Positions 40,527 through 64,000 of a stretch of 64,000 bases of DNA are shown in pieces (positions within the stretch are counted from its first letter, which is position 1; each line of letters opens with the position of its first letter). The stretch lies in the NCBI RefSeq assembly GCF_058153355.1, contig NZ_CM177019.1. One strand, given 5' to 3'. Under the pieces are notes generated by a model. It ran no database searches. It saw only the letters and a list, made by a program, of their open reading frames with translations, and had not been told where the DNA came from. The position numbers were made by a program, and so were the translations under genes.

Positions 40527-40647
<121 letters not shown>

Positions 40648-41707: not shown

Positions 41708-41713
41708 TTTCCC

Positions 41714-43790: not shown

Positions 43791-43794
43791 GCGT

Positions 43795-44614: not shown

Positions 44615-44673
44615 AATGCACTCCTTATGTTAACGAAAGGATTGTACAGTAAAGCGCATTTGTTAACGAATCA

Positions 44674-45405: not shown

Positions 45406-45626
45406 CGTCTCACCCTTGCTCGCGAGGTCCCAGTTTAACTTTAGACGCAGTTTTGCGAACCAGGTAGTTTTGCCCGTTTTTTGTTCATCTATAGGGTGAT
45501 TTTATTTTTGCCAGGCGATTTTGAGTGATCGTACTCACGAATTCTCATTTTTTTGCAAGAGTTCAAAGAAAGTTAAACGCAGGCAATGTATGTTACGCGT
45601 TTTAAAGGGAAGTGTGGTTTGCGGGT

Positions 45627-48028: not shown

Positions 48029-48074
48029 AAGACTGCTAAAATGGTTTTTTGCCTCATCAACACCTGAAGGCCTC

Positions 48075-48545: not shown

Positions 48546-48587
48546 GACGGGTATGGCGGCCATGCGAAGAACATGGCCGCCGACAGA

Positions 48588-49049: not shown

Positions 49050-49180
49050 GTAAAACTCCATTTTATTTAATCAAGGAACTGGTGACCACACCAGGGGCCA
49101 TATAGGATATGCCTAATACCTTGGCGTGAGCAGTCCGGAACTGGAGTAGAACTCTTTGTAAAAAGCACTATTTGTCCTTG

Positions 49181-51172
49181 TTACTCAAGCAAGGTTAATA
49201 ATTGTTCGCAAAGCAAAACGCAGTTATTCATTGCTTCTCCCCGTGCCTCGCCTTCTGTATTACGAAATTGTCCCAACACATGTGCCAGCCGATAAAAACC
49301 CATCGCGGTGAGTTCATTGACCAGCAACTCTGACTGACTAATGGCACTCTGTTCCTGATAGCGCCAGCCATTATGGAGCAGTTGAATAAGCAACGCCTGA
49401 CAGCGCATCAGTAACTGATGAGTGGTAGACGGTACAGGCAGAACGCTGGCAGAAGGTAGCGGTGCCACAGGCGCAGTTTCTGCGTCCAGCGCCCAGGCGC
49501 GGGTTTTTGTCATCATCACCCGTGGTTCCAGTGTCAATTGCCCCTCTACAAAACTGACAAAGCCAGAAACCAGACTCACGGGGTCGTCTGTTTGTTGTAA
49601 CAGAGCTGCCATGCGTTCAACGGCAAAAGGAGAACAGGCAGATGCCGGAAGGGATAACGTCAGCACATTATCGTCACCTTCGCCACTGATTACCTGCGCA
49701 TCCAGTGTCTGCCGACTGCTGTCCCAACCGAGTGAAATGCACTCTTCTACTGGCAGAATAAATAAGTTATCGACCTGGTTAAGCTGTCGTATGGCGGCTG
49801 GCGGACGTTGGCGTAAATATTCCCGCAAAGCCACAATGCCCGGCTGGCGCAGTGGTGCGCTCAACATTTGCCAGGCATCAGGCGACAGCGGAACAACACT
49901 GCTTAAGCGGTTGCGGGTAGCTAATAGCAACTCGCCATCAGCACTGCGTTTTGCTGCTTGTGAAACAATTTGCCCACCCGCCAGCGCGCCAGCCTGAAAA
50001 CTAAACAGCCGCCGTTTTGCCGCTGGAGAGTTATCCTGTTCACTTCTCGGCCAACTGCGCGAAAGATGCAAAATACTGCCGGTGTCGGGATCGGTGAACC
50101 AGATGCGTAAACCATACCGCTCATTATCCTGCCAGCAACGCATACCTAGTGACACCAGCCGCAAATGATCAAGCTTTGCTTCGCCAGCAATGCCTGCGCC
50201 AATGACCGTGCGCCACGGTATGGGCGGTACTTCACCGACACTGTCACGTCGCGCCATCTCTTGTGCACTGTTCAAGCGACTGGTTAACGCCGCAAGCTGG
50301 CACAAGCATTTTCCGGCATGATAGTAGCTGGCGCGGGCGTGGAAGGCATCAACGCTTGCCCGTAGCTGTCGTAGTGATTCACTTACCCAACGCCAGTTGC
50401 AGCGTTCCGCCGCTTGCTGCGCGCGGCTGAAAGCGGCCTCGTAGTGGATTGACGGTTGGCTGATGCCTCCCAGCCATAATGCCTGACTTAATTGCTGAAC
50501 ATATTGACGACATGCTTTACCTTCGTCGCTGGAAAACGGATCGTCAGATGATGTGACGTGTTCACTGTGCATCTGCCAGATCAAATGAGTAAATTCTGCT
50601 TGTTGATTTTTGGCCTCGACGAAGGCCTGCACAGCCAGTGCTACGTGTTCACACAGCGTTCCTTCAATACAATCACAACGGGCGAAACGAATGCTGCTGC
50701 GGGAATAAAAACGCACATCGCTCATCGGTAAGCGGGCAGAGGGAATTTCGCCCGGCGTGCAGAACAACTCAATGGTGATGCCTTTAGCGACCAGCGCCTG
50801 CGCGCGTTTGCGCGTGGTATTGGGCAGGGTAGCCAGTTCTTCCTGCCAGATTGCCGGATCCCACTCTTCTTCTTTTTCCGTAGGCTGGGCGGTGGCACAA
50901 AGTCGTTGATAACTTAACACCAGCATCACGCGATGACGGCACATGCCGCTGGCCCCGCAGCTGCATTGAGCCTCTTTCAGTGCCTGACTGTTCGCCAGCC
51001 GGGTACGGACACCGTCACTGAACGTGGCGATTAAAGCGCCGTTCTCATGGCAGATTTCCGGGACATTGCCATTTTCCAGTTCCTTAAGGCTGCGCTTCAC
51101 AAAACCAGCATTGCTTAACGCCGTCAGGGCCTGCGGTGTCAGTTCTAATAATTCCGGACGTAGTGAATTCAT
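49181..51172 (-). CDS. yehQ: SWIM zinc-finger protein YehQ
   Basis: Start MNSLRPELLELTPQ overlaps the yehP stop (ATGA); two CxCx5CxH SWIM motifs visible (CSCGASGMCRH and CDCIEGTLCEH). Confidence 0.85.
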   Translation of the reverse strand: MNSLRPELLELTPQALTALSNAGFVKRSLKELENGNVPEICHENGALIATFSDGVRTRLANSQALKEAQCSCGASGMCRHRVMLVLSYQRLCATAQPTEKEEEWDPAIWQEELATLPNTTRKRAQALVAKGITIELFCTPGEIPSARLPMSDVRFYSRSSIRFARCDCIEGTLCEHVALAVQAFVEAKNQQAEFTHLIWQMHSEHVTSSDDPFSSDEGKACRQYVQQLSQALWLGGISQPSIHYEAAFSRAQQAAERCNWRWVSESLRQLRASVDAFHARASYYHAGKCLCQLAALTSRLNSAQEMARRDSVGEVPPIPWRTVIGAGIAGEAKLDHLRLVSLGMRCWQDNERYGLRIWFTDPDTGSILHLSRSWPRSEQDNSPAAKRRLFSFQAGALAGGQIVSQAAKRSADGELLLATRNRLSSVVPLSPDAWQMLSAPLRQPGIVALREYLRQRPPAAIRQLNQVDNLFILPVEECISLGWDSSRQTLDAQVISGEGDDNVLTLSLPASACSPFAVERMAALLQQTDDPVSLVSGFVSFVEGQLTLEPRVMMTKTRAWALDAETAPVAPLPSASVLPVPSTTHQLLMRCQALLIQLLHNGWRYQEQSAISQSELLVNELTAMGFYRLAHVLGQFRNTEGEARGEAMNNCVLLCEQLLTLLE

Positions 51173-52305
51173 GACTGAAGATTCTCCGCAAGCCAGGTAG
51201 CCAGTTCGCCCGGCGTCATTGCGGCTATTTGTGCGCCGACATTTACCAGCGCCTGGGCTGTATCGCGGTCGTAGCAAGGTGTTGCGGTGCTATCGAGCGC
51301 TGCCAGTCCCAGCACTTTGATGCCGCTCTGGACACACTTTTTCACCTGATGCGTCAGCAATGATGATGAACCCCCTTCATAAAAATCGCTCACGAGGATG
51401 ATGACGCTTTTCGCTGGTTGTTCAATAAGTTGCCGACCATATTCCACGGCGCTGGCGATATTGGTCCCGCCATCCAGCTGTACTTTCATTAATAACTCTA
51501 CCGGATCGGCAACGTCTGCCGTGAGATCGACGACGCTTGTGTCAAAAGCGACCAGATGGGTGCGGATACCGGGTAACTGCCATAAACAGGCCGCCATCAC
51601 CGCTGAGTGGATCACCGAATCGACCATTGAGCCGCTTTGATCAACCAGTAACACCAGCTGCCATTGTTCGCTATGGCGTTTAATTCGGCTGTTAAAGCGG
51701 GGGGATTCGATATACAACTTGCCGTGTTGCGGGTGCCAGTGTTGCAGGTTGGCGCGCAGAGTACTTTTGAAATCGAAATTACGTGCCAGTGGAATAAATG
51801 AGCGGCGACGGCGATCGCGGACACCTGAAAAAGCCTGACGAACTTCCTTTGCCAGTCGCGCCATAATTTCTTCAACAACCTGGCGCACTATCCGGCGGGC
51901 GGCAGCCAGCACTTCGGGATTCATCAGATGTTTGGTGTGCAAAACGGCGCGTAGCAGGCTTTCAGAAGGCTGCATACGCTCCAGCACGTCGAGATTCGTC
52001 ACCACATCTTCAATGCCGTAGCGCAGTACGGCATCGCTTTCCAGCCGCTCAATCACCCGTTGCGGAAATAGTGTGTGAATACTGTTGATCCACTCAGGGG
52101 TGGTGAGATTTGAGTCACCTAATCCACCGGAGCGTTCACCACGCTGGAGCCGTTCAGGATCGCGCCCATACAGCCACTCCAGCGCGTGGTCTATCTGCCG
52201 GGCATTGTCATCCAGCCCACAAAGCGTCGTTTCTGCCGCTTCGCCAAGAATTAATCGCCAGCGTTGTAGCTCACGAGTGGTCAGAAGATCGTTCAGTTCA
52301 GACAT
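51169..52305 (-). CDS. yehP: von Willebrand factor A (VWA) domain protein YehP
   Basis: 378-aa product from MSELNDLLTTRELQRW; MIDAS motif DxSxS in LVLLVDQSGSM. Confidence 0.85.
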   Translation of the reverse strand: MSELNDLLTTRELQRWRLILGEAAETTLCGLDDNARQIDHALEWLYGRDPERLQRGERSGGLGDSNLTTPEWINSIHTLFPQRVIERLESDAVLRYGIEDVVTNLDVLERMQPSESLLRAVLHTKHLMNPEVLAAARRIVRQVVEEIMARLAKEVRQAFSGVRDRRRRSFIPLARNFDFKSTLRANLQHWHPQHGKLYIESPRFNSRIKRHSEQWQLVLLVDQSGSMVDSVIHSAVMAACLWQLPGIRTHLVAFDTSVVDLTADVADPVELLMKVQLDGGTNIASAVEYGRQLIEQPAKSVIILVSDFYEGGSSSLLTHQVKKCVQSGIKVLGLAALDSTATPCYDRDTAQALVNVGAQIAAMTPGELATWLAENLQS

Positions 52306-54577
52306 GGAAAACTCCCCAGTGTTGCAGTGATGCCAGTGCCTGCTGTTCGAGTTGTTGATGATGTGCAATGGCTTGCGGTGGACAATGCAACGGCATTTGC
52401 AGCGCTGAAACGGGAAGCTGTGCGAGCTGGTAATGCTCAAGCACCTGATGCGCCAGCGTCCCGCGTTCTCGTGGTGGTAGCCAGGCCATCGCCGCGCGTA
52501 AATCGGGCAGGGCGTTAATAAAATCGTCGTCACTCAGTTGATTTAAATGACTACTGAAACCGGCGATAAATGCCGGCTGACAGGCCAGTTGATGGCGGGC
52601 CAGCGCCAGCAAACCGTGCAGCGCCTCGCCAGATTGTGCCGGGGATAATTGTGCCAGCATCGTCAGCGCCGCTTCGGCACTGGCGTTGGGATGTTCCAGA
52701 CGCATCAGCGCGCCAAGGGCCGCACCGCGATCCAGCGCTGGGGCATGAATCGCCTGACTGCGACGTTCCAGTAAGGCTACCGCCGCAGAAAGCGAAACGC
52801 CGGGTAAATTAACGCCGCTATTTAGATCGCGCAGGATATGGCAAAGCGCCTGCCAGCTATGCAGGTGAGCGTGAAACTCCTTCTCATCCGGCCTGCCGTT
52901 GGATTCACATAGCCACAGTGTGCGATCGATAGCCGCGTATAACGTCGTCTGTAATATCTGCGCGCCTTGCATACCGCTGATTTCATCGAGCTGCCACAAG
53001 GCGTAAAGCACTTCCAGCGCCTGGCCCATTTCGGCAAACTGATTTTCCTTGGCGATTAATAATGTGAGTTGTTCCAGTAATTGCTGACTGAAGGACGCCA
53101 GACCCGCTAACGCGGCCTGGCTAAGACATGTGGTGATGCCGCTGATTCCACCCGCGTCCAGCATATCGGCTTCTAATTTATTGCGTGCGGCCTCCTGGAG
53201 TGTGGCACCAAAGCAGGCGGCTTCAATCAATGCCGCATGTTGGCTAAGTGGCTGGGTTAATGTCCAGCGTTCTTCACCGTTGCCCGCCAGCGTCAGTGTA
53301 CTTCCTTGCTCGCGCACAATGCCGGGAATCTCCAGTATTACCAACTGATGTAGCACCTGACTTTGCGCCAGTCCATCGGGGGTAAAGCGATTTAAGGTAA
53401 GCTCCGCCGGAAGAGAGATTCCGGTACGTTCCAGTTCGTAGGTGACATCTTTTGGCAGAGGTGGCTGTGGCGTCGAGGGGGCAAGTTTACCGAATCCGTC
53501 ACCTGCTAATGTGTCTATCAACGTTACCAGTATCGGATCGGTATCGGGATGAATAACGTCGCGATAGCTCCACGGCAACGGCGCATTCAAGGCTTCTTTA
53601 ATCAGCGAGCCTGCTATGGCATCCAGCCAGTCAGTGCGTAACGGTAGTGTATGACCGCGCAACTGTGCCAGCGCCATCGCATGTAAATGAGCGGCAGCCA
53701 TATCCGCGGTTGAAGCAGGCAATTTGTGCTGGCGCAAACGGGTAAGAACCGTTTTTAGTAGTTGTTCACCTGCCTGCTGCAAGCCCCACCGCCAGCACCA
53801 GTTTTGCCAGACCGGGGCAGGCATTCCTGAAAGGTATCCTGCCAGCACATCAAGGCGCTTTTCACTGTATGGCGTGAGATAGCAACCTGTAACGGCATCA
53901 TCCTGTGAGAGCAATTCTGGCTTGTTAATTTCTTGCGGGCATTCGCGCCACATTTTTGCCAGTGCCGGAGCGTGCCAGCCTCCGCAGACGACTAATACGT
54001 CGCCATTATTTTGCTGCATCGCCCATGCAATCCAGCGGGCCATAAAGGCTTCGCGCTGACGATTGAGTGCATCGCCGGAGGCGTCGCCCCGCAGTTGTGC
54101 AAAATAGTGCGCCAGTGCAGAGGGTAATATAGTTTGCTGGCTTTCATCTTCGAACAAGTGATCCCACAAGGTGTCGCTGTTATCCATGCGGGTGGCACGC
54201 AGCAGAAAGGCCTGGCTTTCCTCTTGCATATCAGGCGAATCATCCTCTTCTTCACTTTGTGCCCAGCAAGGCAAATCGATGAAGTAAGTTTGTGCCTGAA
54301 TACGACGTGCGGCTTGTAGCGCCTGCCACTCCGGCGAAAATTCAGCAAATGGCGTCCAGGCACCACGCCCGGGGGCCGCACCGTCCTGATACTGGCAATA
54401 ACTGTAAATAGCTACCGGAAGCTGGTGGGCTAACAACAGTTCGTCTACCCGGTCATTAAAATCAGCCGGGCCTTCAATCAACACGTATCGTGGCCGCTGG
54501 CTTTCGATTAACGATTTCACCAGCCGGGCGCAGGCCGGACTATGATGCCGGATGCCGACAATTAACGGCTCGCTCAT
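52298..54577 (-). CDS. yehM: Large uncharacterised protein YehM
   Basis: 759-aa product from MSEPLIVGIRHHSPACARLV; no recognisable catalytic motif by eye; sits between the AAA+ and VWA genes. Confidence 0.85.
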   Translation of the reverse strand: MSEPLIVGIRHHSPACARLVKSLIESQRPRYVLIEGPADFNDRVDELLLAHQLPVAIYSYCQYQDGAAPGRGAWTPFAEFSPEWQALQAARRIQAQTYFIDLPCWAQSEEEDDSPDMQEESQAFLLRATRMDNSDTLWDHLFEDESQQTILPSALAHYFAQLRGDASGDALNRQREAFMARWIAWAMQQNNGDVLVVCGGWHAPALAKMWRECPQEINKPELLSQDDAVTGCYLTPYSEKRLDVLAGYLSGMPAPVWQNWCWRWGLQQAGEQLLKTVLTRLRQHKLPASTADMAAAHLHAMALAQLRGHTLPLRTDWLDAIAGSLIKEALNAPLPWSYRDVIHPDTDPILVTLIDTLAGDGFGKLAPSTPQPPLPKDVTYELERTGISLPAELTLNRFTPDGLAQSQVLHQLVILEIPGIVREQGSTLTLAGNGEERWTLTQPLSQHAALIEAACFGATLQEAARNKLEADMLDAGGISGITTCLSQAALAGLASFSQQLLEQLTLLIAKENQFAEMGQALEVLYALWQLDEISGMQGAQILQTTLYAAIDRTLWLCESNGRPDEKEFHAHLHSWQALCHILRDLNSGVNLPGVSLSAAVALLERRSQAIHAPALDRGAALGALMRLEHPNASAEAALTMLAQLSPAQSGEALHGLLALARHQLACQPAFIAGFSSHLNQLSDDDFINALPDLRAAMAWLPPRERGTLAHQVLEHYQLAQLPVSALQMPLHCPPQAIAHHQQLEQQALASLQHWGVFHV

Positions 54578-54587
54578 GCATCTTTCC

Positions 54588-55676
54588 TCACGGCAGGCGG
54601 TGGCGAGCTTGATAATAAGCCTGCCAGTGAGCTTCTTTATGTGTAGCGACACGTTGTTCGAAGTAACGGCGCAGACGTGCGCGATCTTCTTCGTTATCTT
54701 TGACGATGGTTCCGGCAATACAGTCCACCAGGTCGGCTGGCTCCCCCGCGCGATTCGCTAAAAACCAGGCGCGGACGCCCACGGCGTGGGCCACGTTAAC
54801 GGCTTCAGCGGTGGACATAATCGCTGTAAGGGTATCCATTGACGTTTTCTTTTCGCCGTTGGCACGCAGATCGCGGAAGGTGCGTACCAGTAACTCAAGT
54901 ACCGCGTCAGGCACTTTATGCGGAATACCGCTATGGGCCAACAAACGCGCCGAAGCACTGGCGACCAGTTCCAGCTCCTGGGCGAAATCCATAATCGGAA
55001 AAACCGTTTCAAAATCGAATCGGCGTTTTAGTGCCGCGCTCATTTCATTAACGCCGCGATCGCGGGTATTGGCGGTGACAATAATATTAAAGCCTTCCCG
55101 CGCATAGAGCTGACTGGCTTCACCAGTGAGTTCCGGCACCGTCATAACCCTGTCAGAAAGCATACCTAACAGACAGTCTTGTACTTCCAGTGGTGTACGC
55201 GTTATCTCTTCAAAACGGACAATTTTGCCGTCGCGCATTCCCTGGTAGAGCGGGGCAGGGACCAGCGCTTCCGTTGACGGACCATGATTAATAAGCAGGG
55301 CGTAGTTCCAGCCGTACTTGATTTGATCTTCGGTGGTAGATGCGCCGCCCTGGATAGTTAACCCAGCATCGCCGCTAATAGCGGTTGCCAGTAATTCAGA
55401 CAGGAGAGATTTTGCGGTGCCAGGTTCCCCCACCAACATCAAACCGCGCCCGGTAGCAAGAGTGACTAACATGCGTTCGACAGCGGAGGGACTAATCACG
55501 ACTTTACGGCTGATATTTTGCGCGCTATCGCCAAGAATAAAAGAACGGGCCGCAGGCAAACTTAACTGCCAACCGGGCGGGCAAGGTGCGTTATCATTTT
55601 GCTTTAATTTTGCCAGTTCATCGGCGTATAACACAGCGGCAGGCGGACGCTGCAGATGATTATTCTGCGGTGACAT
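54588..55676 (-). CDS. yehL: MoxR-family AAA+ ATPase YehL
   Basis: 362-aa ORF with Walker A GEPGTAKS and the AAA+ core; first gene of the yehLMPQ operon. Confidence 0.9.
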   Translation of the reverse strand: MSPQNNHLQRPPAAVLYADELAKLKQNDNAPCPPGWQLSLPAARSFILGDSAQNISRKVVISPSAVERMLVTLATGRGLMLVGEPGTAKSLLSELLATAISGDAGLTIQGGASTTEDQIKYGWNYALLINHGPSTEALVPAPLYQGMRDGKIVRFEEITRTPLEVQDCLLGMLSDRVMTVPELTGEASQLYAREGFNIIVTANTRDRGVNEMSAALKRRFDFETVFPIMDFAQELELVASASARLLAHSGIPHKVPDAVLELLVRTFRDLRANGEKKTSMDTLTAIMSTAEAVNVAHAVGVRAWFLANRAGEPADLVDCIAGTIVKDNEEDRARLRRYFEQRVATHKEAHWQAYYQARHRLP

Positions 55677-55786
55677 ATATTCATCCCTGAAATGTATTAA
55701 TCAAATAAACGATATTTTACGCGCAATAAATGTTTGGCGCATTAGTTGTTTGAGCGGAAAATATCTGGAAAGCAGATCACAGTAAA

Positions 55787-55868
55787 TAAAAAAACCTGCT
55801 GGTGAGGCAGGTTCTTTTATTTACTACTTTGACGATAACTTGCTGATTGTGCAACATTTCGTACCAAC
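55787..55868 (-). ncRNA. orzO: Candidate antisense sRNA antitoxin (OrzO-like) transcribed divergently from the toxin gene
   Basis: Minus-strand -10 TATAAT (plus coordinates 55875-55880) with a TTGCAA -35 at 55898-55903; predicted transcript starts at the reverse complement of an 18-nt repeat (55851-55868) and ends at a strong terminator (55794-55822). Symbol is from memory of the EHEC locus and is not verified. Confidence 0.4.
55794..55822 (-). terminator. Rho-independent terminator (strong on the minus strand, weaker bidirectional)
   Basis: acctgc-tggtgagg-gcaggt hairpin flanked by aaataaaaaa on one side and tcttttattt on the other. Confidence 0.6.
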
Positions 55869-55897
55869 GAATGAATTATAACCATATCCACATCCCG

Positions 55898-55925
55898 TTG
55901 CAATTCACTAAGCGAGATTTATAAT
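55898..55925 (+). promoter_or_regulatory. Sigma70-type promoter for the small toxin mRNA (long 5' UTR)
   Basis: -35 ttgcaa (55898-55903), 16-bp spacer, -10 tataat (55920-55925); predicted start about 174 nt upstream of the toxin ATG. Confidence 0.4.
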
Positions 55926-56106
55926 CGTGCCCGTTGGGAGGTTGTGCCGGATTGAACCAATTTCAAGTCCTGGCTGCCGGACGGGGGGTGCCGCAGGTGG
56001 TGCCCTGATCCGGAGAGCAACGTTTCGTACCAACATACGTAAACCAGTATCGACAGGCAGTGTAAGGGTAAGGTGCTGGTGTTGCGCTCCTTAATAAGGA
56101 GAGCGG

Positions 56107-56196
56107 ATGGACACGCTGACACAAAAGTCAACCGTGCTCATTGCCGTACTGGAGTTATTAGTGGCTCTGTTGCGGTTGATTGATTTGTTGAAGTAA
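56107..56196 (+). CDS. zorO: Type I toxin-like small hydrophobic peptide (29 aa), ZorO-like
   Basis: ORF MDTLTQKSTVLIAVLELLVALLRLIDLLK preceded by SD aaggagagcgg-ATG; amphipathic single helix resembling TisB/DinQ-class toxins. Symbol assigned from memory, moderate certainty. Confidence 0.55.
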   Translation: MDTLTQKSTVLIAVLELLVALLRLIDLLK

Positions 56197-56218
56197 CGGG
56201 CAAATTGAAACGCATCTA

Positions 56219-56245
56219 AGGGGGAATACCGTTTCCCCCTTTAAT
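56219..56245 (+). terminator. Terminator hairpin after the toxin ORF (also at the 3' end of convergent yehK)
   Basis: agggggaa-taccgt-ttccccct followed by ttaataaagctattttt. Confidence 0.45.
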
Positions 56246-56249
56246 AAAG

Positions 56250-56570
56250 CTATTTTTCTATTTGTTGGATGAATATATTTTGTAGTTCACGATTAAAAAT
56301 TGCTATTACAGTTTTAGGTGATTCACCTCGTAATTTACGCTCATCAATAAATTCATCTCTTATATAAATCAACGCATCATTTATTAGCGGGTCGACATCT
56401 TCTCGATCACGTTGATGAAATGTTGGATGTAGCCGGAATCGCTCCAACCGGTAGACGGAACCAGTAAATAATTCAGAGCATTTATGGATCTCAAGTCTGA
56501 AGGAAAACGGATCTTCAGGTACAGGGACTTCATAATCATAAGTAGCGACCAGCTCTTTTTGCACGATCAT
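56250..56570 (-). CDS. yehK: Small uncharacterised protein YehK
   Basis: 106-aa ORF immediately downstream of yehI on the same strand. Confidence 0.8.
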   Translation of the reverse strand: MIVQKELVATYDYEVPVPEDPFSFRLEIHKCSELFTGSVYRLERFRLHPTFHQRDREDVDPLINDALIYIRDEFIDERKLRGESPKTVIAIFNRELQNIFIQQIEK

Positions 56571-56630
56571 CGCTTTTCCCGGTGGTAAGTCGTGTTGATA
56601 ACGGGCAGTCGCATCACTGCCCGCTGTGTT

Positions 56631-59600
56631 TTAATGGAAAATGACGTCAGGTGCGCTTAACGCTTCACTCAAATCAAACGTATCGAGTTCGGCAAAAGTG
56701 ACAGATTTATTGTCACGGTACACTCGAAGAGAACGGAAGCTCATTAGCGCTTTGCTATCAGCACTGTAGTGGTTAAAACCGGGTGAAAACTTAAGGACCA
56801 GCCGATACTCGCCCAGGTCATAGACACATGCGTCCTCAAAACCTGACTCCCAGCCTTTGTATCGCATTCCCATAAGTTGCCCAACGGTTGCGGATTTACC
56901 TTCCCAGCGAGTCAGGCTGTTACTGGCTGACTCGTCAGGTGTGAGCAGCACTGTGCGCCGCATCAACTGGCGAAAAGGCGGCATAATTTCGTAATCGGCA
57001 AAAACCTGTGCAAATTCACTGCGCATTTCTGCTGTCATTTCTAACGGGTGGGCAATGCCAATCAGAGCATCCGCAGGCAGGTCAATTGGCTCATCTTGTG
57101 CGTTGCAGAACTCCCCCTCAGCGGCCACGCGAAAGGCGTTGAGTAAACGACGCGGTTCATTTGCCGGATAAACCGCCCATATTAATCGCTGAGTAACCAG
57201 GCGAGTAAAGGGATGATTAACAAACAGAGAATGAAAATCTGCCAGCGACCAGCGTCGGGTGGTGCGTAGGGCAGTTTCAAGACGCGGGAGCAGGTTTTTG
57301 CTCACCTGAGTGGCATCTTTTTTTAGCCCTTTTAGTCGGGCCAGTGCCTCGGGTGCTTTCAGCTGATCGTCATCGGCGCGCAACCGGGGAACACTTTTCT
57401 GGCGAACGTTTTGCTGATCAAAGATAACCGGGTTGAGGTTTTCATCGAAGCGAACGGTAAACTGCCGGGGTCCAAAATCAAATATCAACGCCTGCGGATC
57501 ATCCAGGCCCAGTGTTGGGACTAATCTGTCCGCTAACTCTTCCTGGCTTAGTCCACGATTTTCTGCGACCACCTGAAGAAATTCCGCCGCGTTATCACGT
57601 AAGGGACGGGATTTCGCCCGTTGCGATATATGATGCAGCTGTATCAGCGCCATATCATTATTCATCAGGGTAAGTATGTTCAGGCCACTGACGGCGCGGG
57701 CAGATTTGCCTTCCTGTGGCCAGGCGAGGATCTGTGTTGTCAGATCCCGAGCCGTGCTTTCGTCACCAAAGAGACTTAACGCCAAAAAAGCCCAGTTGTC
57801 TTTTGCGGGGGCGCCAGCCTGTTGCCAGGCGGTGAAGAGATCCCAGGCAAAAGCGGCCAGCGTTTGTGGCTGGCAGAACGTTTTCAGTTGTTCCAGCCCA
57901 CAATAAAAACGTCCGCCCTGGGTAAAGCGCAGCATTTCGCCGATAATTTCCAGAGCATCATCAGTAACATGTTGATTATTCGTGATAATTCTCGGTCTGG
58001 ACCACATTGTCGGATGCCAGAAATCAGGGGCTTTGGGAATGCGTGCCGGGTAAATGTCCATTGGACCCTGTTTAAGTAATTGCTCCAGGGCAGGCCATAC
58101 ATCTGTATGCTGCCAGCGGTTTGCCACGGTTTGCAGTAATTCGCCATGCCCTTGTTCATACAGTAAACGCAGAGCGCTGAGTGCCGCTTCGCTGTTATCG
58201 CCAGACCTGGCAAAGATTAATGGGATCAGCGCCGTAGCCGTATGCTCCGGCCATTGTAAAATCCACTGGCGAGCCAGATTACGCTGGCCCGCAAAACGAT
58301 GCCAGACGCGGGCAACGGGCAGCGCCAGTTCTGTTGCGCCAAAATGAATCAGCAGCGGAAATATCTCTTTGGGATGTCGGGCAAAGGCGGTGATTAATCC
58401 GGGCAAAGCATCGGTACCCAGGACACTTAACAGATATTCTACCCCGGTGTAATGAAAATCAGCCGCGACAATTTGTTGCCAGCACGATACCGCCATTTCG
58501 CGCGGCATTTGCGCGATAAGATACAGGTTCCATACTCCCCAACGCTTTTCATCAGTGTAATTAAATTTGCGTTGGAAAGTTCGCCACCCCTCCATCAACG
58601 CAACACTATCTTGTGCCAGTAATGCGCTGGCGGCCTCTTCCCGGTAGTGTTTATTTTCATTCTGTTTTGCCTGATAATTGAGCAATCTTCCTACTGAAGT
58701 ATGTGTCTCTAGTTGATCGGTATCCAGAGCATCCAATTGTCCTTTGAGAATAAACTCATTAAACTTCCACCTGTGATCTTCAAAACCTAATTCCCGCAAG
58801 AAGGTATCCGCCCCTCTGTTAGCAAGACGTTCGTCAAAAGACATGGCGCTAAAATGGTCAATTGCAGTTTGCTGTTCCGGCGTCCAGTGTTTATTCGGCG
58901 ACCTGTACGCTTGCGGTACAAGCGTAAGTTCAGGTAGCGAAAAGTGAGTTATGGAAGCCTTTTTCCTGCCACGCCACGGTGGTGAAACGAGGATTTCAGG
59001 CAGACTACTGTTATCGGTGCTATCAATAACCGGTTTTGGCGAAGCCGATAAATAACTATTCACCACTGCCCGGGCTTGAGTACTTAACGACGGGATCACC
59101 TCTTCTGCCAGTTGTGGCTGCGATGCCATCAGCGTTTGTAACAGCGTACGCCAGTATTCATCACGTGCTTTTTGCTGTGCAGGCAGCTTTTTGTCTTCGA
59201 TGATAGGATAACCAGGGCGCGTAGGGGGGGCTTTTAACGCCAGTAGTTCTGCCAGTGCGGCGAGCGTCGCATGGGGAAAGTTTTTACTGTATTTAGCCAC
59301 ACGCTGCAGGCTGGGTTTGTTTTTATCGGCAACTAACAGCAAGATGCGAATAACTTGCGGATGGTTAATTTGTACCAGCAGGCTACCGCAATCTTCTTTA
59401 TGGGCATACATCGCGAGGCGTGGAACGGCTGCAATTCCTTGTTCGCGCAAAAGGGCGGCGCAGGCCGCGTAGCCGAAGTGGTTTTCATGCGACATGTAGC
59501 TGGCTTCGCGATCGCTAAATATATCCTGGCTCCAGTAGCGTTCGAGTTTTCTCACCGCTCTGGGGTCATTAGCAACAACTTTTAACCACTCCTTAGAATG

Positions 59601-60287
59601 AAAATGAGTCCGCGGGCATTCAAGGCCTACCAACTCATTGGCGATTTCTGGTTTCTCCGGGAGGATGAGTGCAATAAAAGGACGGCGAACTTGGGGTAGT
59701 CCTGGCAGTGCGGCAATGAGTTTGTCGGCGCAACGCTGCCAGCAGCTTTCCTCTGCCAGAGAGAGAGGCTTACGCAGTCGGAGATCGAATTCGTTATAGG
59801 TTTCTGAGCGATAACCATAACCATAGCCATAGTCCTCCTTCTGATACTGCAATGTTACTACCAGAGGATCGTTCTCATAACACCGCGCAATAAACTGGCG
59901 TGCAATCACCACCTCAGTCGCATATTCCAGCCCCTCTTGTTGGACGATTTCGTCGAGCAACTGTTGGCTGTCATTTTGCGCGATACAGGCTAGCGCCGCC
60001 ATTGTCCGGGCCGGAATTGAGGGTTTGTGCTCGCCGATCAAGTTGATGGCTTGCGTAATGGCCGACTGCCACTCCAGTGAAAAATTTTCATAACGCCAGA
60101 CAATGTTTTTTTTCTTCTCAGCAATGTGTAGCAATTTATCACCCAGTGTCTGGATGAGGCTTTCAGTGATAACAGGCACCGGTTCGCCCGGCCAATTGCG
60201 ATGGCTGAGTGGTGTTTTGCCTTTTTTATATTTCAGTTCCAGTTGGGCGTTATCCGCCAGCCACGGTAATTCCTTGTCCATGCTCAT
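56631..60287 (-). CDS. yehI: Giant DUF4132-family protein YehI
   Basis: 1218-aa ORF; paralogous to the adjacent molR product (shared blocks such as HLSLAEESCWQRCADKLIAALP...ALILPEKPEIANE). Confidence 0.9.
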   Translation of the reverse strand: MSMDKELPWLADNAQLELKYKKGKTPLSHRNWPGEPVPVITESLIQTLGDKLLHIAEKKKNIVWRYENFSLEWQSAITQAINLIGEHKPSIPARTMAALACIAQNDSQQLLDEIVQQEGLEYATEVVIARQFIARCYENDPLVVTLQYQKEDYGYGYGYRSETYNEFDLRLRKPLSLAEESCWQRCADKLIAALPGLPQVRRPFIALILPEKPEIANELVGLECPRTHFHSKEWLKVVANDPRAVRKLERYWSQDIFSDREASYMSHENHFGYAACAALLREQGIAAVPRLAMYAHKEDCGSLLVQINHPQVIRILLLVADKNKPSLQRVAKYSKNFPHATLAALAELLALKAPPTRPGYPIIEDKKLPAQQKARDEYWRTLLQTLMASQPQLAEEVIPSLSTQARAVVNSYLSASPKPVIDSTDNSSLPEILVSPPWRGRKKASITHFSLPELTLVPQAYRSPNKHWTPEQQTAIDHFSAMSFDERLANRGADTFLRELGFEDHRWKFNEFILKGQLDALDTDQLETHTSVGRLLNYQAKQNENKHYREEAASALLAQDSVALMEGWRTFQRKFNYTDEKRWGVWNLYLIAQMPREMAVSCWQQIVAADFHYTGVEYLLSVLGTDALPGLITAFARHPKEIFPLLIHFGATELALPVARVWHRFAGQRNLARQWILQWPEHTATALIPLIFARSGDNSEAALSALRLLYEQGHGELLQTVANRWQHTDVWPALEQLLKQGPMDIYPARIPKAPDFWHPTMWSRPRIITNNQHVTDDALEIIGEMLRFTQGGRFYCGLEQLKTFCQPQTLAAFAWDLFTAWQQAGAPAKDNWAFLALSLFGDESTARDLTTQILAWPQEGKSARAVSGLNILTLMNNDMALIQLHHISQRAKSRPLRDNAAEFLQVVAENRGLSQEELADRLVPTLGLDDPQALIFDFGPRQFTVRFDENLNPVIFDQQNVRQKSVPRLRADDDQLKAPEALARLKGLKKDATQVSKNLLPRLETALRTTRRWSLADFHSLFVNHPFTRLVTQRLIWAVYPANEPRRLLNAFRVAAEGEFCNAQDEPIDLPADALIGIAHPLEMTAEMRSEFAQVFADYEIMPPFRQLMRRTVLLTPDESASNSLTRWEGKSATVGQLMGMRYKGWESGFEDACVYDLGEYRLVLKFSPGFNHYSADSKALMSFRSLRVYRDNKSVTFAELDTFDLSEALSAPDVIFH

Positions 60288-60290
60288 TCC

Positions 60291-63200
60291 TTATTCAAAC
60301 AGGGCTTCGATGTCGTTAATTAACTCGCTAGCGGTGATGTCATCGAGTGCGGAGAACTGCGCTTCCTGTGTTGAATTAATCCCCCAGCCATAGCTTTCTG
60401 CTTTGCCTTCCCATAGCCACAGCTTGCTTAAGAGTTGCTCGGCACTGAGTTCGGCTGGCGACATACCAACTGCAAATCCTTCATCGATTTCCATGATTAA
60501 TGACCAGCGGCCCAGAGGTTTGATCATCCAGCCGATCCAGCCACCGTCCTGCGGTTCACCACGCATCCAGCCTTTATTCGCCAGCCCCATTACCCGACCG
60601 CTCGGGCATTTTCTGCCTGCCCAGCGGGTCAATTCGCTGGCATTGCGCTCGGTTTCTGTCAGGGCGTAACTGTTACGGTCGAGCTGGCGGAACGGCGGTA
60701 GCAGTTCGTAGTCGGCAAAAAGCTGACCAAAGGCGGCAGCATCCGTGGGTGATATTTCCAGAACGTGAGGAATGCCAACAGAGATATCGCCTTCCGGCAG
60801 GGTGAAAAGATCATCGTCAGCGGTGCTGTAGCTGTTATCTTCCGCCACACGGAAGCACGCCAGTAACTGGTTGTCTGCGCTATAAATGCCCCAAATCAGA
60901 CGGCGGGTTAAGTGGCAGACCAGCGGATGCTCAACCAGAAAGAGCTGAAAGTTTTCTGGCGACCAGCGGCGGCGCAGGCACATGGCGGATTCCAGCCTTG
61001 CCACCTGCTGGGCGGCAACGGTACGCGCATCTTTTTTCAGCAGTTTGTAGCGGTTAACTGCATCGTTCGCTTGAGTTTCATCATCGCTTTTGTTCGGTTT
61101 AGGCAAGTCTTTCAGGCGGCTGCCGGAAGCATCACGCACAAACGGTTTTAAGGTTTCATCAAAGCTGACGGTGAACTGCCGTGGCCCGAAATCCAGCAGC
61201 AGCGAACCGTTATCATCCAGACCGAGATCCGGTGCTAACCGGTCTTCAAGCTCCGCCACCGTGAGTTCGCGGCTCTCGGCAATGTCGGCAATTTTTTCTT
61301 TTGCCCGCTCCTGTAATGCTTTGAATTTCAGTTTCTGGGCGATGCCGTTAAGCTGCATCAGGGCGATATCACTACCGATAGCAGCGAGAATATCCAGCCC
61401 GACGGTGGCGCGTTTATGCTGGGATTCACCAGGCCAGGCGCGAATCAAAGGCGTCAGTTTGCGGGCGGTATCATCGTTGCCGAGAACACCTAACGCAGTG
61501 AACGCCCAGCTTTCTTTCGACGGTGCGCCAGCGGTCTGCCAGGCGGTAAACAGATCCCAGGCAAATTCAGCCAGTGAGTCGGCGGTACAGGCATCTTTCA
61601 CCTGCAATAACCCCGCATACAGAGCCTCTTCCTGAGGGAAGCGGAGCATTTCACCGAGGTGGAGGAGGGCGTTATCTGGCAGTGATTGGGCGTTTGCTTT
61701 TAATACCGGGCGTGTCCAGAGCGATGGCTGATAAAAGGCCGGAAGTGTCGGGATTTTAGTCGGGTGATTATCTAAGGGATCGAGCGCAAGTAGAGCGTTC
61801 ACCGCATCGGTTACTTCCGGCTGGTTATAACGCTGGGCGATTTCTTGCAGTAATGACGGATAACCACTTTCAATCAACATACGTAAGGCGGCGCGGGCGT
61901 TATCCTGGGCTTCACCAGCTTTGCCGAGTGCCGCAGGCAACAGGCCGATAATGGCATGTTCCGGATATTTCAGCAGCCAGGTGCGGGCGTCTTGTCGTAG
62001 AGTTTTGAGTTTGTTAAAGGCGCGGGCGACGGCAGGAGCCAGTTCCGTTGCGGCAAAATAATTAGCAACCGCAAAACCTTCTTGAGGGTAGCGTGAAAAC
62101 GAGTGTAGAAAACCACTCATACCTGCCAGTCGCAAATAAAGCATGACAGGTTTTACCGCGGTATGCGGCTCTTTGCTGAGAAACTCCCATAGTTTAATCG
62201 CTGTTTGCATAGGTAAAAAGGGAAGTGAGTTGAGATGCCACTCCCCCTGATACGGTGCATGGTGGGCTTTAAACATTTGGATGAGTGTAGCGAAGTCCTC
62301 ACGTTCCCATGCGTCAATTGCCGAGTCAGAAGCGCCGATATATTTATATGTGTCAAAATCCCAGCGGCGATACCCCAGCGAGTAAAGGAAATCTTTAGCA
62401 CCTTCACCTGGCTTATGCGATTCCCAGTCCCAATGAGTTTGAAACTCTTTTGCTTCTGTGTCGGTTATTGTGCATATGGATTTGAGTTTGAGCGGTGCTA
62501 AATCCAACACCGGAATCGTCGATTTTTTCTTTTTCGAAAGCCAGGGAGGTAAGACTAATACGGCTGGCAGTAGAGCGGCGCAGGCATGGTTTGACGGTTG
62601 TATCAGTTGTTGCTGGCATGATTTCAGCACTTCAACTGCGGCTGTCGAGAGCCAGGGAGTGACCTGTTCTGCCAGTGCCGGTTGCGAGATAAGCATCGTC
62701 ATTAGCATAATGCGCCAAGTATTCTCTTCTTTTTGCGCAAGAAGTTCCGCCAGTGCCGCCAGTGCTGCGTGTGGGAACGCAGCGCAAGCTTTCGTCATCC
62801 GATCGTGACAGCGTTTAGTTTGCCCGGCTACACGTATGAGCAGTGTTAATGCGAACGGATGATTGATATGACGCAATACATCTGCGCAGTAGTCACTTGC
62901 GGCATAGGGAGCAAATCTGGGCAGGGCTGCAACACCTTGCTCCTGTAATACGGTGGCTGACAATATCGCACCACAATAGTAATCATCAAAAATGGCATAT
63001 GGCTCGTGATATTTTTCTAATGAGGCAAGAATGTGCTCATCAGTCGCCACTATTTTTAGCCACTCAAGCGAGGGTAATTTTTTTTTCCCCAGTAGACGCT
63101 GGGCAATTTCATGTGCAATTTCTGGTTTTTCGGGTAATAACAAAGCAATTAATGGTTGCCGCCATTCTGGAATATGTGGAATTGCGGCAATAAGTTTTTG

Positions 63201-64000
63201 TGCACATTTTTGCCAGAGAGACTCTTCCGCCAGTGATAAATGTTTCCGTAGGCGTAATTCAAAACTGGAATATTGCTGCAGGTTATCAGGTGCAATACCA
63301 GACGGCAGAATAATAATGGTATTATTCGCATAATCCCATTCAATATCAATCTGTTGAAGATGTATTACTACATCAGTAGCATATTCCAGGCCACCTTCCT
63401 GAACGAGCTGATCCATAACATCCTCACGCTCTTTATATCTCGTGCACTTCAGTTCAAGTGCCGTGAGTACAGCCATTACTGGTGATGGTAACTGTGTTGT
63501 TTTCAGGCAGTCGATCTGACTGAGCGCCTGGGAGATGGCGTTTTGCCATTCTAAAGAACAGGCGCTGAAGTCAAATGTGGCTGTTTTATTATCCCGTTGC
63601 AACACGCTACAGGCTAAGCGGCGTAACTGGGTCAATTCGTCTGCTTGCTGAACAGGAACTCCGGGAAAGCGGCGATGGCTTAACGTGGTGTGTACAACTT
63701 CGGGCGGAAAAACGACAGCAATATCTTTCGCCAGCCACGGTAAAACATCATCTGTATTTTTGTCAGCCACACGGGCTTCTGCTACGCAAAAGGGTTGTTC
63801 CTGAATAATGGTGGATAAGGCCGCTACCTTGAGAGAATCCGTTACCGTTTGGGAAGGTTGCAAAGAATTATCCTTCGCTTGCCCCACATACCCCTTCTTC
63901 ACCTTCTCCGCAATCAGCCTCAGTTCCGCTTTTTCCGCCGCCGCAGCATCAGCAAAGCTTTTTACCTGGCTTTGCCCGTTGGTACTGACTTTGCCCCAAC
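60291..64000 (-). CDS. molR: Giant DUF4132-family protein MolR (YehH/YehG/YehF equivalent), intact frame, 5' end beyond window
   Basis: Uninterrupted reading frame from 60291 to the window edge, with no in-frame stop in 63903-64000; paralogue of yehI. Confidence 0.8.
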   Translation of the reverse strand, partial: WGKVSTNGQSQVKSFADAAAAEKAELRLIAEKVKKGYVGQAKDNSLQPSQTVTDSLKVAALSTIIQEQPFCVAEARVADKNTDDVLPWLAKDIAVVFPPEVVHTTLSHRRFPGVPVQQADELTQLRRLACSVLQRDNKTATFDFSACSLEWQNAISQALSQIDCLKTTQLPSPVMAVLTALELKCTRYKEREDVMDQLVQEGGLEYATDVVIHLQQIDIEWDYANNTIIILPSGIAPDNLQQYSSFELRLRKHLSLAEESLWQKCAQKLIAAIPHIPEWRQPLIALLLPEKPEIAHEIAQRLLGKKKLPSLEWLKIVATDEHILASLEKYHEPYAIFDDYYCGAILSATVLQEQGVAALPRFAPYAASDYCADVLRHINHPFALTLLIRVAGQTKRCHDRMTKACAAFPHAALAALAELLAQKEENTWRIMLMTMLISQPALAEQVTPWLSTAAVEVLKSCQQQLIQPSNHACAALLPAVLVLPPWLSKKKKSTIPVLDLAPLKLKSICTITDTEAKEFQTHWDWESHKPGEGAKDFLYSLGYRRWDFDTYKYIGASDSAIDAWEREDFATLIQMFKAHHAPYQGEWHLNSLPFLPMQTAIKLWEFLSKEPHTAVKPVMLYLRLAGMSGFLHSFSRYPQEGFAVANYFAATELAPAVARAFNKLKTLRQDARTWLLKYPEHAIIGLLPAALGKAGEAQDNARAALRMLIESGYPSLLQEIAQRYNQPEVTDAVNALLALDPLDNHPTKIPTLPAFYQPSLWTRPVLKANAQSLPDNALLHLGEMLRFPQEEALYAGLLQVKDACTADSLAEFAWDLFTAWQTAGAPSKESWAFTALGVLGNDDTARKLTPLIRAWPGESQHKRATVGLDILAAIGSDIALMQLNGIAQKLKFKALQERAKEKIADIAESRELTVAELEDRLAPDLGLDDNGSLLLDFGPRQFTVSFDETLKPFVRDASGSRLKDLPKPNKSDDETQANDAVNRYKLLKKDARTVAAQQVARLESAMCLRRRWSPENFQLFLVEHPLVCHLTRRLIWGIYSADNQLLACFRVAEDNSYSTADDDLFTLPEGDISVGIPHVLEISPTDAAAFGQLFADYELLPPFRQLDRNSYALTETERNASELTRWAGRKCPSGRVMGLANKGWMRGEPQDGGWIGWMIKPLGRWSLIMEIDEGFAVGMSPAELSAEQLLSKLWLWEGKAESYGWGINSTQEAQFSALDDITASELINDIEALFE

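What the first reader, a model, noticed from the sequence alone, without database searches (positions are those of the whole stretch)
56250..64000. Tandem giant paralogues molR and yehI (DUF4132, about 1200 aa each) plus small yehK directly upstream of yehLMPQ
Two adjacent proteins of about 1200 aa on the same strand share colinear blocks, for example HLSLAEES(C/L)WQ(R/K)CA(D/Q)KLIAA and ALILPEKPEIA(N/H)E, indicating an ancient tandem duplication. molR reads as one uninterrupted frame to the window edge, whereas I recall it as a multi-fragment pseudogene in K-12. Their size and position next to the MoxR/VWA/SWIM operon suggest they may be substrates or scaffolds of that machinery.
Basis: partly seen in the sequence, partly recalled or inferred. 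Interest (0 to 1): 0.5.

Follow-up and report, generated by a model that had tools for sequence, protein, structure and literature searches.

The report
Giant MolR/YehI paralogues of YehLMPQ module
Two neighbouring 1,200-residue E. coli proteins of unknown function are true ancient duplicates, and they are the variable-copy, fast-diverging part of a five-gene ATP-driven module conserved across several bacterial phyla whose role is still untested.

Summary
On the minus strand lie yehK (56250-56570), yehI (56631-60281/60287) and molR, which is open from 60291 to the window edge and lacks only about 27 N-terminal codons. MolR and YehI are 37% identical over 1186 aa. K-12 molR is a three-fragment pseudogene, but intact 1262-aa MolR is the usual E. 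coli state, so the intact frame is not surprising.

In 52 of 73 loci from other genomes, one to at least seven tandem DUF4132 genes sit on the same strand as one YehL (MoxR AAA+), YehM (DUF5682), YehP (VWA) and YehQ (SWIM), in that order. This supports the proposed functional link. yehK is not part of this module: it is an AT-rich gene found only in Escherichia, inserted together with a zorO/orzO toxin-antitoxin copy.

The giant proteins are WGR + variable alpha-solenoid + conserved C-terminal half, under purifying selection, with a deeply diverged mosaic central cassette and 2-4 copies within Escherichia.

Best reading: they are client or adaptor subunits of a Midasin-like YehL/YehP remodeller. 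The biological role is unknown; a conflict or sensing role is possible but not shown. No effector domain, defence-model hit or informative fold match was found. The genes and family are long annotated, so interest is moderate.

The parts
60291..64000 (-). molR (MolR1 type, WGR + DUF4132), cut by the window edge; about 27 N-terminal codons missing
   Evidence: The frame is open from 63998 to the stop at 60291-60293. It is 100% identical to the 1262-aa EC42405 protein over the shared part.
63876..63998 (-). C-terminal half of the WGR domain of MolR
   Evidence: Pfam PF05406, 35.4 bits against a cut-off of 22, profile positions 36-76 of 79.
60567..61124 (-). DUF4132 domain of MolR
   Evidence: Pfam PF13569, 174.1 bits, residues 959-1144 of the partial product.
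62116..62493 (-). Central segment of molR that does not align with K-12 at the DNA level
   Evidence: There is a gap between the blastn HSPs 58960-62115 and 62494-64000 against K-12.
56631..60287 (-). yehI (DUF4132, no WGR); probable start at 60281
   Evidence: ORF of 1218 aa. The SD-like TAAGGA overlaps the molR stop, 6 nt before the ATG at 60281. The product is 84% identical to K-12 YehI and 97% to an E. fergusonii protein.
56850..57404 (-). DUF4132 domain of YehI
   Evidence: Pfam PF13569, 160.9 bits, residues 962-1146. The AF2 model of residues 914-1218 has pLDDT 94.
58368..59030 (-). Hypervariable central cassette of YehI (about aa 420-640)
   Evidence: Identity to K-12 is 17-63% here against 80-100% in the flanks. 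Mean pairwise identity among 12 Escherichia alleles is 43-69%. dS is 2.3 against about 0.2 in the flanks, and dN/dS is 0.24.
56250..56570 (-). yehK, a 106-aa orphan gene confined to Escherichia; not part of the conserved module
   Evidence: No hit in Pfam, NCBIfam or PADLOC. Relatives occur only in Escherichia and Shigella. GC is 37%.
56107..56196 (+). zorO-like type I toxin ORF (29 aa)
   Evidence: The product is MDTLTQKSTVLIAVLELLVALLRLIDLLK. The locus is described in PMC2887945.
55788..55861 (-). OrzO-P antitoxin sRNA
   Evidence: Rfam RF02083, 90.6 bits against a gathering score of 60. A promoter-like site lies at 55903-55875.
54588..55676 (-). yehL, MoxR-class AAA+ ATPase (AAA_5)
   Evidence: Pfam AAA_5, 117 bits. 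Walker A GEPGTAKS and Walker B VRFEE are invariant in 54 of 54 homologues. The nearest solved sequence is Midasin.
52298..54577 (-). yehM, DUF5682
   Evidence: Pfam PF18934, 323 bits. It co-occurs with the giant genes in 52 of 73 loci.
51169..52305 (-). yehP, CoxE-like VWA protein with a MIDAS motif
   Evidence: Pfam VWA_CoxE, 240 bits. The motif DQSGS is conserved in 48 of 48 aligned homologues.
49181..51172 (-). yehQ, SWIM zinc-finger protein; intact here, a pseudogene in K-12
Evidence: Pfam SWIM, 29.9 bits. Two conserved CxCxnCxH motifs.

Best explanation
MolR and YehI are two members of a variable-number set of giant proteins. Each consists of an N-terminal WGR domain (lost in YehI), a variable alpha-helical solenoid, and a conserved C-terminal half ending in the DUF4132 alpha/beta domain. 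Together with YehL (MoxR AAA+ ATPase), YehM (DUF5682), YehP (VWA/MIDAS) and YehQ (double SWIM zinc finger) they form one conserved five-component module.

Proposed mechanism, by analogy with Midasin, CbbQ-CbbO, NorQ-NorD and CoxD-CoxE:
- A YehL ring with the YehP MIDAS adaptor uses ATP to engage and remodel the conserved C-terminal half of the giant proteins.
- The variable solenoid and the WGR domain give each paralogue its own binding specificity.
- The giant proteins are therefore the clients or specificity adaptors of the machine, and several paralogues share one machine.

Shown: homology, domain content, conserved synteny, copy-number variation, the pattern of conservation, purifying selection, and intact catalytic motifs.

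Inferred: physical interaction, direction of action, ligand and output.
For: - Paralogy: 37% identity over 1186 aa.
- Family size: 5657 clusters at 50% identity, with the conserved part at residues about 520-1140.
- Synteny: D(n)-L-M-P-Q on one strand in 52 of 73 loci across several phyla, always with exactly one YehL and with n from 1 to at least 7. The median D-to-L gap is 54 nt.
- No other neighbour is conserved.
- Intact motifs: YehL Walker A/B, YehP MIDAS and YehQ SWIM motifs are invariant or nearly so. The nearest solved sequence to YehL is Midasin. YehL is the type member of a MoxR subfamily (PMC3893208).
- Structure: the AF2 model (pLDDT 89) is an alpha-solenoid plus a C-terminal alpha/beta domain.
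- Conservation pattern: family-wide and within arrays, the WGR domain and the C-terminal half are conserved while the N-terminal solenoid varies.
- Selection: dN/dS is 0.09-0.42 throughout.
- An invariant Ser-Glu lies in the last helix. It is a candidate MIDAS ligand; this is inference only.
Against: - No interaction, expression or phenotype data exist in the literature searched.
- In E. coli the giant genes are separated from yehL by yehK and a toxin-antitoxin copy. yehL and yehM rise in an hns/stpA mutant that has an H-NS-binding region in the adjacent intergenic DNA.
- About ten loci, mostly Massilia, hold a DUF4132 gene with no L-M-P-Q within 10 kb.
- The roles of YehM and YehQ are unexplained.
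Confidence: 0.5

Rival explanations
1. The module is a biological-conflict (immune or surveillance) system. The diversified giant paralogues act as sensors of foreign nucleic acid or protein, through the WGR domain and the variable solenoid. YehL/YehP/YehM/YehQ transduce or execute the response. This concerns the biological role and could be true together with the best explanation.
For: - Copy number varies between strains: 2, 3 or 4 in Escherichia. The third paralogue is present in 1629 of 5426 complete E. coli genomes. Arrays reach at least 7 elsewhere.
- The central cassette is an ancient mosaic (dS 2.3 against 0.2), and YehI alleles within one genus are 63-98% identical.
- The whole yehQ-molR block is about 93% identical to more than 5300 E. 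coli genomes, while the flanking DNA is about 98%.
- Pseudogenes and insertions recur: K-12 molR and yehQ, IS1, and TnMB1860 in ST131.
- The module is distributed as a unit across phyla, with unrelated flanks.
Against: - No nuclease, protease, NADase, pore or other effector domain was found in any of the five proteins.
- None of the seven proteins hit any PADLOC model.
- The bpMoxR match is below its cut-off and there is no beta-propeller partner.
- The locus is near-universal at a fixed chromosomal site in E. coli, in 5397-5407 of 5426 genomes, unlike typical accessory defence islands.
- dN/dS is below 1 everywhere.
- No viral structural match.
Confidence: 0.3
2. The module is a housekeeping maturation or assembly system, like NorQD, CoxDE or RavA-ViaA. 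The giant solenoid proteins are scaffolds that help assemble or insert a cofactor into an enzyme complex encoded elsewhere.
For: - Characterised MoxR-VWA pairs are chaperone-like maturation factors (PMC3893208; PMC8926400).
- YehP belongs to the CoxE-like VWA family.
- The locus is near-universal in E. coli and under purifying selection.
Against: - No candidate client enzyme is conserved next to the module in 73 loci, whereas known MoxR clients are usually encoded alongside.
- Copy-number expansion and hypervariable cassettes are unusual for a dedicated assembly factor.
- K-12 tolerates loss of molR and yehQ.
Confidence: 0.15
3. MolR is a transcriptional regulator of molybdate metabolism, as its historical name and some database names ('MolR family transcriptional regulator') state.
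For: Only the names attached to some database entries.
Against: - The Pfam scan finds no DNA-binding HTH domain and no molybdate-binding (Mop/TOBE) domain, only WGR and DUF4132.
- No molybdenum-related gene is conserved near the family in 73 loci.
- The gene is dead in K-12.
Confidence: 0.02
4. The giant genes are decaying remnants with no present function, and the intact frame here is a matter of chance.
For: K-12 molR and yehQ are pseudogenes, and insertions into the region occur.
Against: - dN/dS is 0.09-0.42 over 1200 codons.
- There are invariant residues across 59-120 distant homologues.
- Intact 1262-aa MolR is widespread.
- The models have high confidence.
Confidence: 0.03

Closest known systems
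MoxR AAA+ / VWA remodelling pairs (RavA-ViaA, CbbQ-CbbO, NorQ-NorD, CoxD-CoxE); YehL is the name-giving member of one of the seven MoxR subfamilies (Snider & Houry 2006, as cited in PMC3893208)
   Same: There is an AAA_5 MoxR ATPase with invariant Walker motifs, next to a CoxE-like VWA protein with an intact MIDAS motif. The putative client genes are encoded alongside.
   Different: The partners here are giant WGR/solenoid/DUF4132 proteins in variable copy number, plus DUF5682 and a double-SWIM protein. None of these appears in a characterised MoxR system, and no enzyme client is linked.
Midasin (Rea1/Mdn1), the eukaryotic ribosome-assembly remodeller
   Same: It is the nearest solved sequence to YehL (E = 2.7e-8). 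The logic of AAA_5 modules combined with a MIDAS domain that grips an acidic residue of a client is the model for the proposed mechanism (established knowledge of Midasin).
   Different: Midasin is a single polypeptide of about 4,900 residues with six AAA modules. Here the ATPase and the VWA domain are separate small proteins, and the clients are unrelated.
MoxR-vWA-beta-propeller ternary conflict systems (Kaur et al. 2020, eLife, PMC7159879)
   Same: A MoxR + vWA core is combined with diversifying partner proteins, with a patchy distribution and a proposed conflict role.
   Different: The bpMoxR profile match is below its cut-off (18.6 against 27 bits). There is no beta-propeller and no effector domain. 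That paper was not returned by a full-text search requiring three of the terms WGR, MoxR, SWIM and vWA.
Pfam DUF4132 / NCBI 'WGR and DUF4132 domain-containing protein'
   Same: Both proteins are clear members, and databases already name them so.
   Different: The family entry carries no function. The module-level synteny, the arrays and the cassette variation found here were not in the literature I could search.

Membership tests
Pfam DUF4132 (PF13569) | Profile match above the gathering score | tested here: met
   MolR scores 174.1 bits and YehI 160.9 bits, against a cut-off of 27.
WGR domain (PF05406) | Profile match above the gathering score at the N-terminus | tested here: met
   MolR scores 35.4 bits against 22, with only profile positions 36-76 visible because of the window edge. 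YehI has no WGR. Among long family representatives, 77 of 116 have one.
MoxR AAA+ ATPase (YehL subfamily) | AAA_5 module with Walker A and Walker B motifs | tested here: met
   AAA_5 scores 117 bits. GEPGTAKS and VRFEE are invariant in 54 of 54 homologues.
MoxR AAA+ ATPase (YehL subfamily) | Hexameric ring with ATPase activity stimulated by the VWA partner | not testable with these tools
   This needs biochemistry.
MoxR-VWA remodelling pair | Adjacent VWA protein with a MIDAS motif (DxSxS) | tested here: met
   YehP matches VWA_CoxE at 240 bits. DQSGS is conserved in 48 of 48 aligned homologues. The L-M-P order is conserved.
MoxR-VWA remodelling pair | A defined client protein remodelled by the pair | not testable with these tools
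   MolR/YehI are proposed as clients from synteny alone.
MoxR-vWA-beta-propeller ternary conflict system | bpMoxR-type ATPase plus a beta-propeller partner and effector domains | tested here: not met
   bpMoxR scores 18.6 bits against a cut-off of 27. No propeller or effector family was found in any of the seven proteins.
Known anti-phage defence systems (PADLOC-DB 2.0) | A match of any component to a defence-system protein model | tested here: not met
   There were no matches for all seven proteins at E <= 0.01.
Molybdate-responsive transcription regulator (ModE type) | A DNA-binding HTH domain plus a molybdate-binding Mop/TOBE domain | tested here: not met
   The Pfam scan of MolR returns only WGR and DUF4132.
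HEAT/ARM alpha-solenoid proteins | Structural superposition on known solenoid repeats | tested here: inconclusive
   Foldseek returns only HEAT/ARM proteins (mTOR, PP2A-A, importins, CAND1), but with E >= 5.9e-4 and TM 0.06-0.20. The helix content of the model agrees with a solenoid.
zor-orz type I toxin-antitoxin (side feature) | OrzO sRNA above the Rfam gathering score, with a divergent 29-aa hydrophobic ORF | tested here: met
   RF02083 scores 90.6 bits against 60. The ORF lies at 56107-56196. The locus is described in PMC2887945.

The most novel reading that the evidence does not exclude
The D(n)-YehL-YehM-YehP-YehQ module is an undescribed, widespread sensing or immune system. Arrays of diversified WGR/solenoid/DUF4132 proteins would act as interchangeable receptors for foreign nucleic acids or proteins, and a Midasin-like AAA+/MIDAS machine would convert binding into a response. 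E. coli would then carry a near-universal but allelically diverse example that is disabled in K-12, where both molR and yehQ are pseudogenes. That could explain why it has escaped laboratory study.
Probability: 0.25. Interest if true: 0.8.

Novelty: new variant of a known kind. Interest (0 to 1): 0.4.

Why it matters
These are among the largest uncharacterised proteins of E. coli, and the family is large: more than 5,600 clusters at 50% identity.

Treating MolR and YehI as the variable component of a conserved five-gene MoxR/VWA module gives a concrete, testable framework for a MoxR subfamily (YehL) that has had no proposed client since it was named in 2006.

It also carries a practical warning. 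K-12 is a poor model for this system, because molR and yehQ are both pseudogenes there. Strains with alleles like this window's have every gene seen in the window intact.

If the module proves to be a sensing or conflict system, it would be a new architecture with no recognisable effector. If it is a housekeeping remodeller, its client would still be new.

Tried and rejected
- **Defence-model scan (PADLOC):** nothing for any of the seven proteins.
- **NCBIfam:** only weak sub-threshold matches (GvpN, MadB, McrB for YehL), which are uninformative.
- **Sequence search of the PDB:** no hit for YehI or YehM and only chance-level single matches (E 0.4-0.8) for YehK and YehQ; only Midasin for YehL.
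- **Foldseek, whole YehI model against the PDB:** generic solenoids only.
- **Viral structure library:** nothing at E <= 0.001.
- **AlphaFold-database fold search:** the library was not available.
- **Search for a sixth conserved neighbour or an effector gene in 73 loci:** only generic families (ABC ATPase, GGDEF-EAL, LysR) or synteny within one genus.
- **Simple introgression of the block from E. fergusonii:** rejected. yehLMPQ is 93.5% identical to the fergusonii-type contig while yehK-yehI is 95.7%, so the locus is a mosaic.
- **YehK as a fragment of a DUF4132 protein:** no similarity.
- **Literature:** several searches found no functional study. One 'yehL' lead turned out to be an author's surname.


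Full report
**1. What is in the window**

All genes of the finding lie on the minus strand.
- yehK: 56250-56570, 106 aa.
- yehI: 56631-60287, 1218 aa from the first ATG. The SD-like TAAGGA overlaps the molR stop codon and sits 6 nt before the ATG at 60281, which is the start used in RefSeq for the 1216-aa homologue in strain EC42405.
- molR: runs from its stop at 60291-60293 to the window edge. The ORF lister stops at a GTG at 63902, but the frame stays open to 63998. The extra residues (WGKVSTNGQSQVKSF...KGY) are the C-terminal half of a WGR domain.

In the closest complete genome, E. coli EC42405, the same protein is 1262 aa and identical over the shared part. The window therefore lacks only the first 27 codons.

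Downstream on the same strand are yehL (AAA_5/MoxR), yehM (DUF5682), yehP (VWA_CoxE) and yehQ (SWIM), all intact.

**2. Checking the observation**

BLASTP of MolR against YehI gives 37% identity over 1186 aligned residues with E = 0, colinear from end to end. Both proteins carry DUF4132 far above the Pfam threshold.

YehI-type proteins of Klebsiella and Serratia are 55-62% identical to YehI, whereas MolR is 37-39%. The duplication therefore predates those genera, and 'ancient tandem duplication' is correct.

The K-12 recollection is also correct. RefSeq marks K-12 molR as 'frameshifted; internal stop'. I find a stop at codon 274 and a frame change near codon 957, which makes three pieces.

However, intact 1262-aa MolR, named 'WGR and DUF4132 domain-containing protein', is abundant in E. 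coli. Individual sequences are seen on at least 1000 contigs. K-12 is the odd one out, and the intact frame here is ordinary.

**3. The link to yehLMPQ**

An HMMER search of 1.84 billion representative proteins finds 5657 family clusters with E <= 0.001. They are typically 1100-1300 aa, and the conserved part is residues about 520-1140.

A scan of one genome per GTDB species returned 73 loci. I called ORFs in them and searched with the window's proteins over two rounds (phmmer, then hmmsearch).
- 52 of 73 loci hold exactly one YehL homologue together with YehM, YehP and YehQ.
- All lie on the same strand as the DUF4132 gene(s), in the order D(n)-L-M-P-Q. In Burkholderia the order is L-M-P-Q-D.
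- The taxa include Gamma- and Betaproteobacteria, Mycolicibacterium, Trichlorobacter and a Holophagales MAG.
- The median distance from the last D gene to the first ATG of L is 54 nt, and it is at most 150 nt in 36 of 47 loci.
- The number of D genes ranges from 1 to at least 7 (Massilia, Rhodoferax).
- Loci without L-M-P-Q are short contigs or extra copies in Massilia genomes.
- No further gene family is conserved next to the module beyond synteny within a genus.

**4. What does not belong**

yehK has relatives only in Escherichia and Shigella. It matches no family and has 37% GC against 51-55% for its neighbours.

The 573-bp yehK-yehL spacer holds a single zor-orz type I toxin-antitoxin copy.
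- A 29-aa ZorO-like ORF lies at 56107-56196 on the plus strand.
- An OrzO-P sRNA lies at 55788-55861 on the minus strand (Rfam 90.6 bits).
- Divergent promoter-like sites are present.

This matches the description of the locus by Fozo et al. (PMC2887945). In Escherichia, then, the ancestral D-L junction has been split by AT-rich insertions. yehL and yehM are de-repressed in hns/stpA mutants, which have an H-NS-binding region in the adjacent intergenic DNA (PMC3686432). 'Directly upstream' and co-transcription therefore do not hold for E. coli.

**5. Anatomy of the giant proteins**

An AlphaFold2 model of YehI residues 30-1218, built with 58 homologues, has mean pLDDT 89 and pTM 0.76. It is almost all helical up to about residue 930, followed by an alpha/beta domain. 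That domain modelled alone has pLDDT 94.

Fold searches were not informative.
- Foldseek against the PDB returns only HEAT/ARM solenoids with weak scores.
- The viral library gives nothing.
- No catalytic domain is recognisable.

Two thirds of long family members (77 of 116) start with WGR, so MolR has the majority architecture, consistent with YehI having lost WGR.

Family-wide, and within Massilia arrays whose paralogues are 44-62% identical, the WGR domain and the C-terminal half are conserved while the N-terminal solenoid is variable and rich in indels.

**6. Population variation**

- The flanking btsS-yehWXY DNA is about 98.3% identical to ordinary E. coli. The yehQ-molR block is only about 93% identical to more than 5300 genomes and 95-99% identical to just 10-21 genomes.
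- YehI here is 84% identical to K-12 YehI and 97% to a protein found in E. fergusonii. Comparison with that contig shows a mosaic rather than a simple introgression.
- Between the window and K-12, YehI residues 1-415 and 640-1218 are 80-100% identical, but residues about 416-640 are only 17-63% identical. The DNA of that segment cannot be aligned, and the same holds for a segment of molR.
- Among 12 Escherichia alleles this cassette averages 43-69% identity.
- Synonymous divergence in the cassette is saturated (dS 2.3) against about 0.2 in the flanks, and dN/dS is 0.09-0.42 everywhere. These are old alleles shuffled by recombination and kept under purifying selection. They are neither decaying genes nor products of recent positive selection.
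- Copy number varies: two in K-12, three in EC42405 and, at 80% or more coverage, in 1629 of 5426 complete genomes, and four on contigs carrying the E. fergusonii-type YehI.
- The region is also a recurrent insertion target: IS1 and TnMB1860 in ST131 (PMC9334617).

**7. The machinery looks active**

- YehL Walker A (GEPGTAKS) and Walker B (VRFEE) are invariant in 54 of 54 homologues.
- The YehP MIDAS motif (DQSGS) is conserved in 48 of 48 aligned homologues.
- Both SWIM CxCxnCxH motifs of YehQ are conserved.
- YehL's nearest solved relative by sequence is Midasin.
- YehL names one of the seven MoxR subfamilies, none of whose members has a known client (PMC3893208).

**8. Interpretation**

The best-supported reading is that MolR and YehI are the client or specificity-adaptor subunits of a Midasin-like YehL/YehP remodeller that also needs YehM and YehQ. 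The conserved C-terminal half would dock on the shared machine, and the WGR domain plus variable solenoid would give each paralogue its own target.

This rests on synteny, on the conservation pattern, and on analogy with CbbQO, NorQD, CoxDE and Midasin. No interaction has been shown.

The biological role is open.
- **For a conflict or sensing role:** copy-number variation, ancient mosaic cassettes, pseudogenisation, and module-wise spread across phyla.
- **Against it:** no effector domain, no match to any PADLOC model, a sub-threshold bpMoxR match with no propeller, and near-universal presence at one chromosomal site in E. coli.
- **Housekeeping maturation role:** possible, but no client enzyme is linked.
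- **The 'molybdate regulator' name:** no domain or neighbourhood evidence supports it.

**9. Novelty and score**

The genes, their family membership and the YehL subfamily are long recorded.

I could not find the following in the searchable literature:
- the five-gene module conserved across phyla;
- DUF4132 as its expandable component;
- the cassette variation;
- the point that K-12 has two of its genes broken.

I rate the system a new variant of a known kind (MoxR-VWA systems), with moderate interest.

Noticed in passing
window 55788-55861 (-) and 56107-56196 (+): A single zor-orz type I toxin-antitoxin copy sits in the yehK-yehL spacer. It consists of an OrzO-P sRNA (Rfam 90.6 bits) and a 29-aa ZorO-like ORF (MDTLTQKSTVLIAVLELLVALLRLIDLLK), with divergent promoter-like sites at about 55875-55925. 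K-12 lacks it, and O157 and EC42405 have a longer spacer of about 1.2 kb.
   Followed up: yes
window 56250-56570: yehK has 37% GC against 51-55% in the neighbouring genes, and its relatives occur only in Escherichia and Shigella. It looks like an AT-rich insertion rather than part of the conserved module. Its function is unknown.
   Followed up: partly
window about 47400-64000: The whole yehS/yehR-yehQ-molR block is about 93% identical to more than 5300 E. coli genomes, while DNA just to the left (40000-49000) is about 98.3% identical. Only 10-21 genomes carry a 95-99% match. Comparison with a contig carrying the E. fergusonii-type YehI shows a mosaic: 93.5% over yehLMPQ and 95.7% over yehK-yehI. 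The left boundary of the divergent block was not mapped.
   Followed up: partly
window 58368-59030 (yehI) and 62116-62493 (molR): Central cassettes of both giant genes cannot be aligned with K-12 at the DNA level. For YehI, protein identity there is 17-63% and dS is saturated, while the flanks are 80-100% identical.
   Followed up: yes
L002 16702-20511; L077 1-9991: Copy number of the giant genes varies within Escherichia. A third WGR-DUF4132 paralogue next to metG is present in 1629 of 5426 complete E. coli genomes, and contigs carrying the E. fergusonii-type YehI have four in tandem. Whether this window's genome has a third copy beyond its edge cannot be told.
   Followed up: yes
window 49181-51172: yehQ (SWIM) is intact here but carries an internal stop in K-12. 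K-12 therefore lacks two genes of the module (molR and yehQ).
   Followed up: partly
window 51169-52305 (yehP): A paper on +1 ribosomal frameshift prediction (FSscan, PMC2790909) mentions yehP 36 times, which suggests a reported frameshift-prone site in this gene. I did not read it. yehM/yehP overlap by 8 nt and yehP/yehQ by 4 nt, which suggests translational coupling.
   Followed up: no
L012, L030, L038, L049, L055, L058 (Massilia), L073 (Rhodoferax): These loci hold tandem arrays of 5 to at least 7 DUF4132 genes, 44-62% identical to each other, upstream of a single YehLMPQ set. Massilia genomes also have several solitary copies elsewhere.
   Followed up: partly
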